This document shows, one piece after another, positions 40,310 through 55,788 of a stretch of 64,000 bases of DNA. Origin of the DNA: a virus. Its lineage: Duplodnaviria > Caudoviricetes. Position numbers and translations under genes: made by a program. The stretch covers positions 1-64,000 of IMG/VR virus record IMGVR_UViG_3300015207_000465. The stretch is one strand, 5' to 3'. Each line of letters begins with the position of its first letter. Position 1 is the stretch's first letter. A model generated the notes under the pieces. That model worked only from the letters and a program-made list of their open reading frames with translations. It did no database searches and was not told where the DNA came from.

Positions 40310-40382
40310 CGCGGGTTGGAGCAGTTGGAAGCTCGCCAGTTTAACTTGCTGGAGGTCGTGGGTTCGAGTCCTACACCCGCCA
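40310..40382 (+). tRNA. Initiator-type tRNA body with anticodon AAC (would read GUU)
   Basis: CGCGGGT/ACCCGCC acceptor with C1xC72 mismatch, A73, D stem GAGC/GCTC (A11:U24), stem CCAGT/GCTGG, loop TTAACTT, T arm GTGGG-TTCGAGT-CCTAC; CCA not encoded. Confidence 0.88.
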
Positions 40383-40413
40383 CAAATAAAAATCACTTTT
40401 ACAAACTTAATCG

Positions 40414-44720: not shown

Positions 44721-44790
44721 TGCGTGTTAGAGAAGCGGTCATCTCGCCGTCATCAGACGGAAATCGCAAGTTCGACTCTTGCACACGCAG
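44721..44790 (+). ncRNA. tRNA-like RNA with 4-nt anticodon loop
   Basis: TGCGTGT/ACACGCA, GAGA/TCTC, CCGTC-ATCA-GACGG, GCAAG-TTCGACT-CTTGC. Confidence 0.75.
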
Positions 44791-44824
44791 CATAGAAAAA
44801 TAACGGAATTTCATTATCACGACA

Positions 44825-45496
44825 ATGCCGAAGAAGCGAATTAGCAACAAGACACCGCGCAAGCCCAAGGCAACACCCTCGTTTGACTACGAGAGTGAGG
44901 AATTTCTGTCGCGCATTGATGCACTTGCTTTTGAGGGCTTTTACAATACGGAAATCGCTGACGAATTGAACATTAGCCGATACGAATTGGAAATGGCGAT
45001 AAGTCAGTGCGAAAAATTGCGCAACACGATAGCGTCTGCCCGCGAGCGTGCGCGTGCGCAAGGCGCGGAAATGCCATCACCCGCTATGTTCGCAAAGGTC
45101 TGGGCTGAATGTAACGGAAAGCGCACCCTACTGATGAAAAAGTTCGGAATTGGCTGGACTAAACTGCAATCGTGGTTGGCGCAAGAGCCGATATTCGTAG
45201 ATATAATGGCGGAACGCGACCTTGAATTTCTTGAGCAGATTGATGTCGCCAGCCGCATCCTTGCATTGGGCGGTGTGAAAGGAAAGGACAACTTTGCGGG
45301 ATGGAGTCGCTACCCCGACAGTTGGATGATGCGCTATCATCTGAATACACTCGGAAGACGATACGGCTATGGCGAGAATCCTATCCAACAGGAAGCCGAA
45401 GACACCGACATTCCGAAGAATATTGAACAAGGAATCGATATTGAAAGCTGGATTAAGCAGGAAGTGGAACAAAAGAAGCGTGATACGGAACAATGA
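44825..45496 (+). CDS. Terminase small subunit (putative)
   Basis: HTH segments; ATGA-coupled to TerL. Confidence 0.7.
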   Translation: MPKKRISNKTPRKPKATPSFDYESEEFLSRIDALAFEGFYNTEIADELNISRYELEMAISQCEKLRNTIASARERARAQGAEMPSPAMFAKVWAECNGKRTLLMKKFGIGWTKLQSWLAQEPIFVDIMAERDLEFLEQIDVASRILALGGVKGKDNFAGWSRYPDSWMMRYHLNTLGRRYGYGENPIQQEAEDTDIPKNIEQGIDIESWIKQEVEQKKRDTEQ

Positions 45497-47745
45497 TAAT
45501 CAACCATGAGATATATTACCCCCTTTATACCGACAAGGAGCATTTCATCATCCTTGTTACGGGCGGTCGTGGCTCTGGTAAATCATTCGGAATCGGCGGC
45601 TTCATAGAACGCCTATCGTTTGAATTGAAGCGCAAAGGCTATTCCAATTCAGACACCGATAAGATAGTCCACAACGTACTTTACACGCGCTACACGATGA
45701 CGAGTGCCAGCATTTCCGTTATCCCCGAGTTCTTGGAAAAGATAGACCTTGACGGCACGGGCAGGTATTTCCGCACAACGAAATCGGATATTGTCAACAA
45801 GATGACCGGCAGCCGCATCATGTTCCGCGGCATCAAGACATCATCGGGCAATCAAACCGCCAAGCTGAAATCAATTCATGGCATCACAACCTTTGTATGC
45901 GACGAAGCGGAAGAATGGACTTCTGACCGCGAGTTTGAAACAATCGCCTTTTCCATCCGTCAGCCGGGTATCCAAAATAGGATTATCATCATAATGAACC
46001 CGACCGACAGTAATCATTTCATCTATCAGAAATACATCAAGGATACGCACCGGATTGAGTATTTTGACGGATTCCCCGTGCAGATTTCCACGCATCCGCA
46101 AGTGCTTCACATCCACACTACATATCTTGACAACAAAGCCAATCTATCGGAAGAGTTCATCAAGTCTGCACAGGAGATGAAAGAGCGCGACCCGGAACGG
46201 TACGCCCACATCTTCATGGGCAGATGGGCAGACGTAGCCGAGGGTGCGGTCTTCAAGAAATGGGGCATCGTCAAAGAATTTCCGAAAAACTGCAAACGTG
46301 TGGCCCGCGGTCTTGACTTTGGATATACCAACGATGTCAGCGCGTGCGTGAAATGCGGCATCATCGGAAACGACCTTTACATCGACGAACAATTCTTCAA
46401 GTCCGGGATGCTTTCTTCCGAGCTGATAAAAGCACTGCGCGAAGATGATTCTTTCGTCTACGCCGACAGTGCCGACCCGCGACTGATTGACGAAATCGCC
46501 CTCGGTGGCGTAATCATCTACCCGGTTGCGAAGCCAGCCGGAAGCATCATCGCCGGCATAGAAAAGATGAAATCGTTTGACAACATCTTCATCACGGAAC
46601 GCTCGCTGAATGTTCAGGACGAGTTCAGAAATTATGTGTGGGCGAAAGACAAAGATGGTAACTACATCAACGTGCCGGAAGACAGATTCAACCACTGCTT
46701 TACAGGCGATACACTAATCATGACAACAAAGGGACAAATACCCATCTCGGAAATAACCACAAATGACTATGTGCTAACATCAAATGGTTGTAAAAGAGTA
46801 GAAAACACATTTAATAATGGACTCAAGAAGATATTGCATATTCGGTTGATTTTTGCTAATTTTGTAGTTGAGTTAAAAGGGACACCAGACCATAAAATAA
46901 AGACAGTTGATGGATGGAAACAACTACAAGAATTGACAAAAGGGGATGTGCTATACTTGTGCAAACCTTTAATGGAAAGGAGTACTCGCTCTATCCCGGA
47001 GAAAGATACTTCTCGCGAGGATGTAAGCGATTACACCGCGTCGTCTGGGAGTATTATTACGGTGCAATCCCCAAAGGGTGTCACATCCACCACAAAGACG
47101 GTGATACCCACAATAACGAAATCGGAAACCTCGAAATCGTGGAGTGTAAAAAACACCTATCGCTACATGCTGAAGAGCACAACGACAATCCTGAAATGCT
47201 TGCCGAGCTGCGTGATAGAATGGATTATGCCAGAGGGTATGCAAATAAATGGCATCGTTCAGAAGAAGGCATCGAATGGCATAGAAAACACGGCAAAGAG
47301 GTGGCAGAGAATCTTGAGCCGATTGAATTTACGTGCCAATGGTGTGGAAAGAAGTTTATGTCCAAGCCATGTGGAGCTAACAAATTCTGCTCAAACGGAT
47401 GTAAAACGAAGTTCAGATACCATTCCGGTATTGACAACGAAACAAGAATTTGCAAGCAATGCGGCAAAGAGTTTGTCGCAAACAAATACTCACGAACTTA
47501 CTATTGCTCCCGGCGATGCTCGGGATTGCATAGCGCAGCCGTGCGTCCTGAAAGGGATAGAGATAGTAGCGGAAAATACCGCTAAAGTATACGACATACA
47601 GGTTGCTGACATACACGAATATTTTGCAAATGGAATACTCGTGCATAATTGTGTCGATGCCTCTCGCTACTATGTCTTGGGCTGCATCCTTGGCAAAATA
47701 CTCAAGCCGAAGAATGTAAAGAAATCTGATTTAGGAATATTCTAA
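45493..47745 (+). CDS. terL: Terminase large subunit (PBSX type) containing an intein
   Basis: TGGRGSGKS, CDEAEE, MNP, GLDFGY, ADSADP, and NH|CVDASRY split by the intein; spliced length 432 aa. Confidence 0.95.
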   Translation: MIINHEIYYPLYTDKEHFIILVTGGRGSGKSFGIGGFIERLSFELKRKGYSNSDTDKIVHNVLYTRYTMTSASISVIPEFLEKIDLDGTGRYFRTTKSDIVNKMTGSRIMFRGIKTSSGNQTAKLKSIHGITTFVCDEAEEWTSDREFETIAFSIRQPGIQNRIIIIMNPTDSNHFIYQKYIKDTHRIEYFDGFPVQISTHPQVLHIHTTYLDNKANLSEEFIKSAQEMKERDPERYAHIFMGRWADVAEGAVFKKWGIVKEFPKNCKRVARGLDFGYTNDVSACVKCGIIGNDLYIDEQFFKSGMLSSELIKALREDDSFVYADSADPRLIDEIALGGVIIYPVAKPAGSIIAGIEKMKSFDNIFITERSLNVQDEFRNYVWAKDKDGNYINVPEDRFNHCFTGDTLIMTTKGQIPISEITTNDYVLTSNGCKRVENTFNNGLKKILHIRLIFANFVVELKGTPDHKIKTVDGWKQLQELTKGDVLYLCKPLMERSTRSIPEKDTSREDVSDYTASSGSIITVQSPKGVTSTTKTVIPTITKSETSKSWSVKNTYRYMLKSTTTILKCLPSCVIEWIMPEGMQINGIVQKKASNGIENTAKRWQRILSRLNLRANGVERSLCPSHVELTNSAQTDVKRSSDTIPVLTTKQEFASNAAKSLSQTNTHELTIAPGDARDCIAQPCVLKGIEIVAENTAKVYDIQVADIHEYFANGILVHNCVDASRYYVLGCILGKILKPKNVKKSDLGIF
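46696..47649 (+). mobile_element. Intein (318 aa) in the TerL nuclease motif
   Basis: Block A CFTGDTLI, block B GTPDHKI, block F VYDIQV..HEYFANG, block G ILVHN followed by Cys+1. Confidence 0.93.
46914..47585 (+). CDS. HNH homing endonuclease with two C-terminal Zn fingers, nested out of frame in the intein
   Basis: LHRVVWE..G.IPKG.HIHHKDGD..NN.I.NL; CQWC..FCSNGC and CKQC..YCSRRC. Confidence 0.88.
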   Translation: METTTRIDKRGCAILVQTFNGKEYSLYPGERYFSRGCKRLHRVVWEYYYGAIPKGCHIHHKDGDTHNNEIGNLEIVECKKHLSLHAEEHNDNPEMLAELRDRMDYARGYANKWHRSEEGIEWHRKHGKEVAENLEPIEFTCQWCGKKFMSKPCGANKFCSNGCKTKFRYHSGIDNETRICKQCGKEFVANKYSRTYYCSRRCSGLHSAAVRPERDRDSSGKYR

Positions 47746-55467: not shown

Positions 55468-55788
55468 ATGAGTCAAGCAGAAAGCTACATAGAAGAGGAT
55501 TGCGACGATTACGCTTACGATAGCAATTATGACTTATACGATAGTCTGGATTGCGATGACGTAAGCTGCATGACCGACCGCCCCTCGCGATTTGTGCAAC
55601 GCCACATTTTACCCGGATTGCATCCCTTGATAGAAGAAATTAGGGCTAAAAATGCCGGTGCGAAGATGGGAGAAGAATTGCGATGCCCGGTTTGTGGAAA
55701 ACGATTTTTCAAAAAATCGTATCAGCAGAAATTCTGTTCTAACGACTGCAAGGTTAAATACCACAATAAACGACAGGTATGGTACTGA
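55468..55788 (+). CDS. Zinc-finger protein
   Basis: CPVCGKRF.KKSYQQKFCSNDC; promoter motif TACCTTTG at ~55426. Confidence 0.7.
   Translation: MSQAESYIEEDCDDYAYDSNYDLYDSLDCDDVSCMTDRPSRFVQRHILPGLHPLIEEIRAKNAGAKMGEELRCPVCGKRFFKKSYQQKFCSNDCKVKYHNKRQVWY

What the first reader, a model, noticed from the sequence alone, without database searches (positions are those of the whole stretch)
46696..47649. Intein with its homing endonuclease overprinted in another reading frame
TerL has a 318-aa intein in the NH|CxDAxRY nuclease motif. Between blocks B and F, where an in-frame endonuclease normally sits, the intein frame reads as Ser/Thr-rich sequence with no recognisable domain. The -1 frame (ATG 46914 to TAA 47585) encodes a complete HNH plus two Zn fingers. 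Both frames stay open over 224 codons; a crude (61/64)^224 estimate gives about 2e-5 by chance. Inference: the nuclease is translated separately from an internal start, uncoupling homing from splicing and from TerL levels.
Basis: partly seen in the sequence, partly recalled or inferred. Interest (0 to 1): 0.85.

Follow-up and report, generated by a model that had tools for sequence, protein, structure and literature searches.

The report
Terminase intein with overprinted HNH gene
A prophage's DNA-packaging gene carries a self-splicing protein insert (an intein), and the middle of that insert also encodes, one base out of frame, a separate DNA-cutting enzyme that probably spreads the insert; the layout is real and very widespread, but it was first described in 2025-26.

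Summary
TerL (45493-47745, 750 aa) carries a 318-aa class-1 intein (46696-47649) in the nuclease motif NH|CxDAxRY. A 223-codon HNH_3 ORF with two zinc ribbons (46914-47585) lies in its -1 frame, and both frames are open.

It is not an assembly artefact. The same layout occurs in about 95 distinct nested HNH genes, from Bacteroides, Firmicutes, Actinobacteria, Proteobacteria, Chloroflexota and archaeal viruses, and in cultured phages TJE1 and phiCDHM19.

- **Selection:** it acts on the HNH frame. 12 of 17 polymorphisms fall at HNH codon position 3, and cross-lineage identity is 60% in the HNH frame against 38% in the intein frame.
- **Structure:** the HNH ORF folds with pLDDT 92. The intein-frame middle has pLDDT about 24.
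- **Translation:** Shine-Dalgarno motifs precede 33% of nested starts against 7% background.
- **Mobility:** in the sister Bacteroides lineage, nucleotide diversity falls from 0.05-0.09 in the extein to about 0 in the intein, the mark of a homing sweep.
- **Relatives:** some are free-standing beside terL, and some sit between split-intein halves.

Gogarten-lab papers of 2025-26 already describe out-of-frame intein endonucleases. This scan has also reported the layout on other genomes (72 notes). I class it as a new member of a known kind.

The parts
45493..47745 (+). terL (large terminase) precursor ORF, 750 aa, with the intein
   Evidence: Terminase_3 (residues 17-243), Terminase_3C (275-401), Intein_splicing/Hint (402-719)
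45493..46695 (+). N-extein (401 aa), ending ...FNH
   Evidence: About 90% identical to intein-less TerL alleles L029-L039, L044 and L053
46696..47649 (+). Class-1 intein, 318 aa (Cys1 ... block B TPDH ... VHN)
46696..46968 (+). N-terminal splicing (HINT) domain, intein residues 1-91. G+C is low here (0.34-0.36 against 0.47-0.52 in the extein)
   Evidence: AF2 pLDDT 80-88; composition
46969..47529 (+). Intein-frame linker, residues 92-278. It is Ser/Thr-rich, predicted disordered and poorly conserved, and it must only stay stop-free
   Evidence: pLDDT about 24; 22-46% identity across lineages against 35-65% in the HNH frame
47530..47649 (+). C-terminal splicing domain (blocks F and G), intein residues 279-318
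   Evidence: pLDDT 82-88; invariant VYD...HE.FANG.LVHN
47650..47745 (+). C-extein (31 aa plus stop), beginning with Cys+1 (CVDASRYY)
   Evidence: Intein-less alleles have Ser, Gly or Ala at +1
46914..47585 (+). Nested HNH_3 / zinc-ribbon homing-endonuclease ORF, 223 aa, in the -1 frame of terL
   Evidence: mean pLDDT 92; best PDB fold match is I-HmuI
47088..47156 (+). HNH catalytic motif (HNH residues H59-H60 ... N68 ... N72 ... H81)
   Evidence: invariant in 26 homologs
47334..47519 (+). Two C4 zinc-ribbon modules of the HNH protein (C141-C163 and C180-C202)
   Evidence: weak Pfam treble-clef hit
46884..46916 (+). A-rich leader without a Shine-Dalgarno motif, the in-frame TGA (46908-46910) and ATG 46914. 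The ATG is embedded in the conserved intein codons Gly-Trp-Lys (GGA TGG AAA)
   Evidence: The region is weakly structured (MFE -5.3 kcal/mol, z = -0.14)

Best explanation
This is a mobile class-1 intein in the nuclease active-site motif of the prophage's large terminase. Its homing endonuclease is not a domain of the intein. It is a separate gene written over the intein's middle in the -1 frame.

TerL-frame ribosomes read straight through and make a 750-aa precursor. In that frame the overlapped 187 residues are a disordered, stop-free linker joining the two halves of the HINT domain. The HINT domain then splices itself out to give a 432-aa TerL (inferred).

Other ribosomes start at ATG 46914 inside the same mRNA and make a 223-aa I-HmuI-like HNH enzyme with two zinc-ribbon DNA-binding modules (inferred). 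That enzyme is expected to nick or cut intein-less terL alleles near the NH|S(I/V)DA site during co-infection or infection of a lysogen. Repair from the intein-bearing copy would then copy the intein and HNH in (inferred from population patterns).

The element most likely arose when a free-standing terL-adjacent HNH gene entered an intein. Only insertions that left the terL frame open, or that split the intein, survived.
For: 1. The anatomy is exact.
2. The layout is conserved. The same nesting, almost always with HNH in the -1 frame of TerL, occurs in the window, in L001-L026 (17 distinct sequences), L024, L027/28 and L061, and in about 95 distinct HNH proteins overall. The host ORFs are TerL plus Hint in 10 of 10 sampled. 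L028's extein is only 25% identical to the window's, yet it carries the same intein at the same motif.
3. Selection acts on the HNH frame. In the L001 group, 12 of 17 variable sites in the overlap are at HNH codon position 3. There are 5 variable amino-acid columns in the HNH frame against 15 in the intein frame. Cross-lineage identity is 60/58/35/65% in the HNH frame against 38/37/22/46% in the intein frame. The catalytic His/Asn residues and eight zinc-binding Cys residues are conserved (four invariant, four in at least 90% of 26 homologs).
4. Structure prediction agrees. The HNH ORF has pLDDT 92 and its best PDB match is I-HmuI. In the intein, residues 1-91 and 279-318 have pLDDT above 80, and residues 92-278 have about 24.
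5. Start signals are present. The start codon is conserved, and Shine-Dalgarno 5-mers lie at -18 to -4 in 31 of 94 nested genes against 7% background (p = 1e-13).
6. Mobility is visible. Nucleotide diversity (pi) is 0.05-0.09 in the N-extein, about 0-0.01 across the intein and 0.02-0.03 in the C-extein. Intein-less alleles 90% identical to the window's extein carry no HNH nearby. HNH-deleted mini-intein derivatives exist.
7. Control: free-standing homologs have 3-15 stops in the frame that nested ones keep open.
8. Viable cultured phages (Tetrasphaera TJE1, Clostridium phiCDHM19) carry the same nested layout under a single 'terminase large subunit' annotation.
Against: - There is no direct evidence of transcription start, translation, splicing or cleavage.
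- This Bacteroides-type lineage has no Shine-Dalgarno motif before the ATG. That is expected for Bacteroidota (my own knowledge), but it is not positive evidence.
- Given the HNH protein and codon usage, the open frame in this one sequence has P = 0.06. The single sequence alone is therefore weak evidence.
- Only one allele of the window's own intein was seen, so the homing sweep is shown for the sister lineage, not for this one.
- The structural match to I-HmuI is weak in TM-score (0.23-0.28; E = 2e-3).
- The cleavage target is unknown.
Confidence: 0.85

Rival explanations
1. The HNH ORF is a decaying remnant that is no longer expressed. The intein persists only because precise loss is hard.
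For: HNH-deleted mini-intein derivatives of the same intein family exist. One relative (L056) has a 1-nt indel that breaks both frames. There is no expression data.
Against: The catalytic and zinc-binding residues are intact. Polymorphisms and cross-lineage identity show purifying selection on the HNH frame. The ORF folds with pLDDT 92. Shine-Dalgarno motifs are enriched before nested starts. The sister lineage shows a recent sweep.
Confidence: 0.05
2. The HNH is made by ribosomal frameshifting from the TerL frame, as a TerL-N/intein-N/HNH fusion, not from its own start.
For: The two frames overlap on one mRNA, and the HNH frame opens only one codon before the ATG.
Against: I saw no X XXY YYZ slippery heptamer between 46911 and 46960 when reading. 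The ATG is conserved in all close relatives, and Shine-Dalgarno motifs precede the start in hosts that use them. Free-standing and split-intein relatives make the same protein from its own start.
Confidence: 0.04
3. The HNH is a packaging accessory nuclease that works with terminase (HK97 gp74-like), not a homing enzyme.
For: Free-standing homologs sit between terL and the portal gene (L058, L060, Pseudomonas phage PAE1). HNH genes next to terminase genes are common (PMC3592412 abstract).
Against: TerL relatives 63-91% identical lack any HNH homolog within 3 kb. Mini-intein derivatives have lost it. The intein and HNH are near-identical across exteins that differ by 5-9%. The domain type is HNH_3, with an I-HmuI-like multi-module build.
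Confidence: 0.05
4. It is an assembly artefact: two compensating indel errors hide an ordinary in-frame HNH intein.
For: The frame switches would fall in short windows near homopolymer runs (46940-46960 and 47530-47545).
Against: The identical 750-aa protein occurs on 7 contigs. More than 100 independent assemblies keep the same frame relation at 27-60% identity, and isolate genomes and cultured phages do too. No in-frame fusions were found.
Confidence: 0.01

Closest known systems
Non-canonical actinobacteriophage inteins with a same-strand, out-of-frame ('frame 3') endonuclease VII-like homing endonuclease (Gosselin, Arsenault & Gogarten, bioRxiv 10.1101/2025.01.02.630785)
   Same: A contiguous intein (terminase large subunit is among the four host protein types the paper lists for non-canonical inteins) carries a nuclease ORF in another frame between the splicing blocks. 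The in-frame middle gives no recognisable structure. The proposed origin is invasion by a free-standing endonuclease gene.
   Different: The nuclease here is Pfam HNH_3 with two C4 zinc ribbons, not InterPro Endonuclease VII. The host is a Bacteroides-type prophage. The paper calls the layout rare, whereas this family has about 95 distinct nested members and 323 TerL clusters across many phyla. Whether the actinophage cases belong to the same HNH clade was not tested. Corynebacterium and Frankia prophage members of this clade are HNH_3.
Cyanobacterial dnaX intein with a +2-frame LAGLIDADG endonuclease (Phillips, DeSimone & Gogarten, bioRxiv 10.64898/2026.09.14.751524; first noted by Gorbalenya 1998 according to that paper)
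   Same: The overlapping ORF lies on the same strand. The intein middle is disordered, the nuclease ORF is well folded, purifying selection acts on the nuclease frame, and mini-intein and intein-free alleles coexist.
   Different: The nuclease class is different (LAGLIDADG). The extein is cellular, not a phage terL.
Fractured genes: split inteins with a free-standing endonuclease gene between the halves (Dassa et al. 2009, PMC2677866)
   Same: The endonuclease is a separate gene lodged inside an intein, and the evolutionary model is the same. About 21 relatives of this very HNH do sit between split terL-intein halves.
   Different: The window's intein is contiguous, because the terL frame has no stop. 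The Dassa cases use GIY-YIG or Vsr-like nucleases, and that paper only predicted HNH cases.
ShiLan element: a hidden out-of-frame HNH inside a phage methylase gene (Arsenault et al. 2025, PMC11855218)
   Same: An out-of-frame HNH sits in a host ORF that stays open, and it is actively homing. The same question arises of how it is translated.
   Different: ShiLan has no splicing domains and stays in the host protein. Here a HINT domain removes the insert.
I-HmuI (PDB 1u3e), intron-encoded HNH nicking homing endonuclease of Bacillus phage SPO1
   Same: It is the best solved-structure match to the predicted HNH protein. Both are elongated and multi-module, with an HNH domain plus DNA-binding modules.
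   Different: Sequence identity is 16% and TM-score is low. I-HmuI sits in a group I intron. This protein has zinc ribbons in place of I-HmuI's C-terminal modules.

Membership tests
Class-1 intein (HINT domain) | N-terminal Cys/Ser nucleophile, block B TxxH, C-terminal His-Asn, and Cys/Ser/Thr at +1 | tested here: met
   Cys at 46696, TPDH, VHN ending at 47649, Cys+1 at 47650
Class-1 intein (HINT domain) | Sequence and fold match to HINT splicing domains | tested here: met
   Pfam Intein_splicing 43.5 bits (cut-off 35.8) plus Hint_2. AF2 gives a beta-rich fold with pLDDT above 80 for residues 1-91 and 279-318
Class-1 intein (HINT domain) | In-frame insertion at a conserved site, with intein-less alleles in relatives | tested here: met
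   434-aa TerL alleles at 90% identity are colinear across NH|SIDA
Class-1 intein (HINT domain) | Protein splicing activity | not testable with these tools
   Supported only indirectly: cultured phages TJE1 and phiCDHM19 carry the same layout in their terL
HNH (His-Me finger) homing endonuclease | HNH domain with catalytic His/Asn residues | tested here: met
   HNH_3 at 55.1 bits against a 24.8 cut-off. H59, H60, N68, N72 and H81 are invariant in 26 sequences
HNH (His-Me finger) homing endonuclease | Fold like a solved homing HNH enzyme | tested here: inconclusive
   The top Foldseek hit is I-HmuI (probability 1.00, E = 2.3e-3), but TM-score is 0.23-0.28
HNH (His-Me finger) homing endonuclease | Population signature of homing: sporadic distribution, and an element far less diverged than its flanks | tested here: met
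   Met in the sister lineage L001-L026. For the window's own allele, only the presence/absence polymorphism is shown
HNH (His-Me finger) homing endonuclease | Site-specific cleavage of the empty allele | not testable with these tools
[quoted passage not shown] | Contiguous intein ORF; nuclease ORF in another frame of the same strand between blocks B and F; unstructured in-frame middle; selection on the nuclease frame | tested here: met
Fractured gene / split intein (Dassa 2009) | A stop after the N-intein half, and a separate ORF for the C-intein half | tested here: not met
   The window's terL frame is open throughout. Relatives such as L057, L068 and L081 do meet this feature
Packaging-associated HNH (HK97 gp74-like) | Present in, and needed by, related phages with the same terminase | tested here: not met
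   It is absent within 3 kb of terL in 27 related loci. It is deleted in mini-intein derivatives

The most novel reading that the evidence does not exclude
The -1-frame nested form is not a rare accident. It may be the ancestral and dominant state of a whole clade of HNH_3 homing endonucleases that has travelled with a terL intein through viruses of many bacterial phyla and of archaea. This state appears to interconvert with split-intein ('fractured terL') and free-standing forms. If so, it offers a natural series for testing how inteins acquire endonucleases. It would also suggest that overprinting is a stable strategy, because indels in the nuclease gene also break the essential terL and so are purged.
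Probability: 0.55. Interest if true: 0.65.

Novelty: new member of a known kind. Interest (0 to 1): 0.45.

Why it matters
It adds a well-supported case from a gut Bacteroides-type prophage to a layout that was described only in 2025-26 and was called rare. It shows that this particular HNH_3/zinc-ribbon version is common: about 95 distinct nested genes and 323 TerL clusters, including cultured phages in which it is unannotated.

Practically, gene callers miss the nested gene, and such inteins get misread as decaying or as mini-inteins.

Biologically, the coexisting free-standing, split-intein and nested forms of one nuclease family allow a test of the 'splicing first, endonuclease invades later' model. 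The layout is also a clean case of long-term dual coding in which one frame only has to stay open.

Tried and rejected
- Megablast of terL against the phage collection found nothing.
No read-level or RNA evidence could be obtained, and read laying was not used.
- A search for longer, in-frame fused forms of the HNH found none (weak evidence by the tool's own note). The top 150 representatives are all 144-395 aa.
- P0019 (345 aa, HNH_3 plus Intein_splicing) looked like an in-frame fusion. It proved to be a nested locus with a 1-nt indel on a 4x-coverage contig.
- A Bacteroides-type internal promoter (TAnnTTTG) lies 57 nt before the ATG in the window, L024, L133 and L062, but is absent in L001, L061, L138 and L179. 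I do not treat it as evidence. The sigma-70 and terminator scans were at background.
- RNA folding around the start is no different from shuffles.
- I saw no canonical -1 slippery heptamer near the ATG when reading.
- My first Monte Carlo script timed out. It was replaced by an exact calculation.
Full report
**Observation.** The window is part of a 103-kb IMG/VR provirus record. The ORF at 45493-47745 encodes a 750-aa large terminase. Pfam finds Terminase_3 and Terminase_3C, followed by Intein_splicing and Hint from residue 402 to 719. The intein runs from Cys at 46696 to His-Asn ending at 47649 (318 aa). It has block B TPDH and a Cys at +1. It interrupts the nuclease-domain motif ...NH|CVDASRYY.

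In the -1 frame, an ORF from ATG 46914 to TAA 47585 encodes 223 aa that match HNH_3 at 55.1 bits (cut-off 24.8). The HNH frame is closed by TGA one codon before the ATG, so the start is unambiguous. The coordinates and description of the finding are correct.

**Chance.** In the window's other long genes, the +1 frame (the relation that terL has to the HNH ORF) carries 0.044 stops per codon. That gives P = 5.7e-5 for 223 open codons, and none of 478 sliding windows was open.

If the HNH protein sequence and the phage's codon usage are taken as given, the probability of an open +1 frame is 0.06 for this sequence, 0.06 and 0.035 for L001 and L024, and 4e-6 for L028.

**Not an artefact; conserved.**
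- The identical 750-aa protein occurs on 7 contigs (P0202).
- IMG/VR holds 26 loci (17 distinct sequences) with an HNH 60% identical, a more divergent one (L024), and two with an HNH 45% identical (L027/L028). All have the same nesting and the same start codon, embedded in the intein codons for Gly-Trp-Lys.
- L028's extein is only 25% identical to the window's, yet it holds the same intein at the same motif.
- A profile scan of genome and viral contigs gave about 150 more loci of this HNH family. In about 108 of them the HNH lies inside a contiguous ORF that carries the intein N and C domains. In all but 2-3 of these the HNH is in the -1 frame of the host ORF.
- Ten sampled host ORFs are all Hint-bearing; seven also hit Pfam terminase families. 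Three (L083, L103, L107) show Hint hits only.
- The record titles name Bacteroides, Coprococcus, Corynebacterium, Frankia, Thiobacillus, Allohahella, Chloroflexota and three archaeal lineages.
- A search with the intein region found 323 TerL clusters, most of which cover the whole intein.
- Free-standing members of the family have 3-15 stops in the frame that the nested ones keep open.

**Which frame is under selection.** Among the 17 distinct L001-group sequences, the overlap has 17 variable sites. Twelve are at HNH codon position 3, which is intein-frame position 2. This gives 5 variable amino-acid columns in the HNH frame against 15 in the intein frame.

Across lineages, identity in the overlap is 60/58/35/65% in the HNH frame against 38/37/22/46% in the intein frame. 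The HNH catalytic residues and both C4 zinc modules are conserved (four Cys invariant, four nearly so) in 26 homologs.

AlphaFold2 gives the HNH ORF a mean pLDDT of 92, and its best solved-structure match is the homing nickase I-HmuI (low TM-score). The intein model has pLDDT above 80 for residues 1-91 and 279-318, and about 24 for residues 92-278. So the intein-frame middle is a linker that only has to stay open.

**Translation.** Separate initiation is not shown here, but it is supported across the family. Of 94 distinct nested genes, 31 have a Shine-Dalgarno 5-mer at -18 to -4 of the start, against 7% of control windows in the same host ORFs (p = 1e-13).

The Bacteroides-type members, including the window, instead have an A-rich leader without a Shine-Dalgarno motif. 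The region is weakly structured. From my own knowledge, this is the usual start context in Bacteroidota. I saw no slippery heptamer for frameshifting, and a candidate internal promoter motif is not conserved.

**Mobility.**
- In the L001 group, nucleotide diversity is 0.05-0.09 along the N-extein. It drops to 0-0.01 from the insertion site through the intein and rises to 0.02-0.03 in the C-extein. The counts are 332 of 1179 variable extein sites against 19 of 954 intein sites. This is the pattern of a recent homing sweep across diverged alleles.
- Thirteen loci have a TerL about 90% identical to the window's N-extein but lack the intein. They have Ser at +1 and no HNH homolog within 3 kb.
- Mini-intein relatives keep the first 20 or so overlapped codons and then skip to block F, so they are HNH deletions.
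- The intein's N domain has lower G+C than the extein.

**Family context.** The same HNH family occurs in three settings:
1. Free-standing between an intein-less terL and the portal gene (L058, L060, Pseudomonas phage PAE1).
2. Between the halves of a split terL intein, in about 21 loci. These include isolates of Peptococcus simiae and Megasphaera cerevisiae. The short downstream ORF matches the intein C motif.
3. Nested out of frame, as in the window.

On an HNH tree, 80 of the 95 nested rows fall in one well-supported clade (SH-aLRT 98). The nested label needs 13 changes against 32.6 when shuffled. Split forms cluster with free ones in Firmicutes. The tree is unrooted and many branches are weak, so the direction of change is not established.

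Cultured phages Tetrasphaera TJE1 and Clostridium phiCDHM19 carry the nested form under a single terminase annotation. This argues that such precursors yield working terminase.

**Comparison with what is known.**
- Out-of-frame intein endonucleases were reported for actinophages: an endonuclease VII-like nuclease in 'frame 3', and antisense LAGLIDADG and Vsr-like nucleases (bioRxiv 10.1101/2025.01.02.630785).
- They were also reported for the cyanobacterial dnaX intein, with a +2-frame LAGLIDADG (10.64898/2026.09.14.751524).
- A hidden out-of-frame HNH without an intein is known as the ShiLan element (PMC11855218).
- Split inteins with an intervening endonuclease gene were described in 2009 (PMC2677866).

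The present case has the same architecture with a different nuclease family (HNH_3 plus zinc ribbons) in a Bacteroides-type prophage. I found no paper in the held library that describes this HNH_3 version or its breadth. This scan has already reported the layout on other genomes: 72 notes in at least 67 genomes.

**Verdict.** Separate translation, splicing and cleavage remain inferences. I class it as a new member of a known kind, of moderate interest mainly because of how common and stable the layout turns out to be.

Noticed in passing
L068:1548-3784, L071, L081:1456-3724, L057:1551-3778, L063/L064: Fractured terL genes. A TerL-N plus intein-N ORF ends in a stop. It is followed by a member of this HNH family as its own ORF, then by a short ORF with the intein C motif plus the C-extein, in varying frames. 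These occur in isolate genomes (Peptococcus simiae, Megasphaera cerevisiae DSM 20462). Dassa et al. 2009 predicted HNH-type fractured genes, but their loci carried GIY-YIG or Vsr-like endonucleases.
   Followed up: partly
L141:1413-3707, L165, L177: Three related loci have the HNH nested in the other alternative frame (host ORF at +2 of the HNH). They form one small clade inside the nested clade, which suggests a frame switch by flanking indels.
   Followed up: partly
L109:1767-3806: A divergent nested HNH (27% identity) sits in an intein inserted in the ATPase (Terminase_6N) domain, not in the nuclease motif. This is a different insertion site with the same architecture.
   Followed up: no
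L056:1-1289: This is a nested locus with a 1-nt indel in mid-HNH that breaks both terL and the HNH. The gene caller fused the HNH N-terminal half to the intein C-terminus (P0019). The contig has only 4x coverage, so this may be an error or a dead copy. This copy has four zinc-ribbon repeats.
   Followed up: partly
L040:955-3381 and L042:3001-4689: Close TerL relatives carry other inteins. L040 has a canonical in-frame LAGLIDADG intein near the N-terminus of the ATPase domain. L042 has a mini-intein of about 130 aa at the same nuclease-motif site as the window.
   Followed up: partly
L090 and L091: Nearly identical nested HNH/terL loci sit in MAGs assigned to different phyla (Pseudomonadota and Chitinophagaceae). 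One of the bins is probably contaminated by a phage contig.
   Followed up: no
window 40310-40383 and 44721-44791: ARAGORN calls a tRNA-Val with the unusual anticodon AAC. It also calls an odd tRNA-like element with a two-base 'anticodon' just upstream of terS (44825). Other first-stage notes link the AAC tRNA to GTT-start late genes. I did not examine this.
   Followed up: no
window 55675-55764: There is a weak second match (E = 1.4e-4, 31 aa) to the zinc-ribbon part of the HNH protein, in a 124-codon open frame elsewhere in the prophage.
   Followed up: no
L215:777-2963 (Tetrasphaera phage TJE1) and L216:443-2842 (Clostridium phage phiCDHM19): RefSeq records of cultured phages annotate only 'large terminase' over a nested, unannotated HNH ORF of this family. 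These phages are ready experimental systems.
   Followed up: partly
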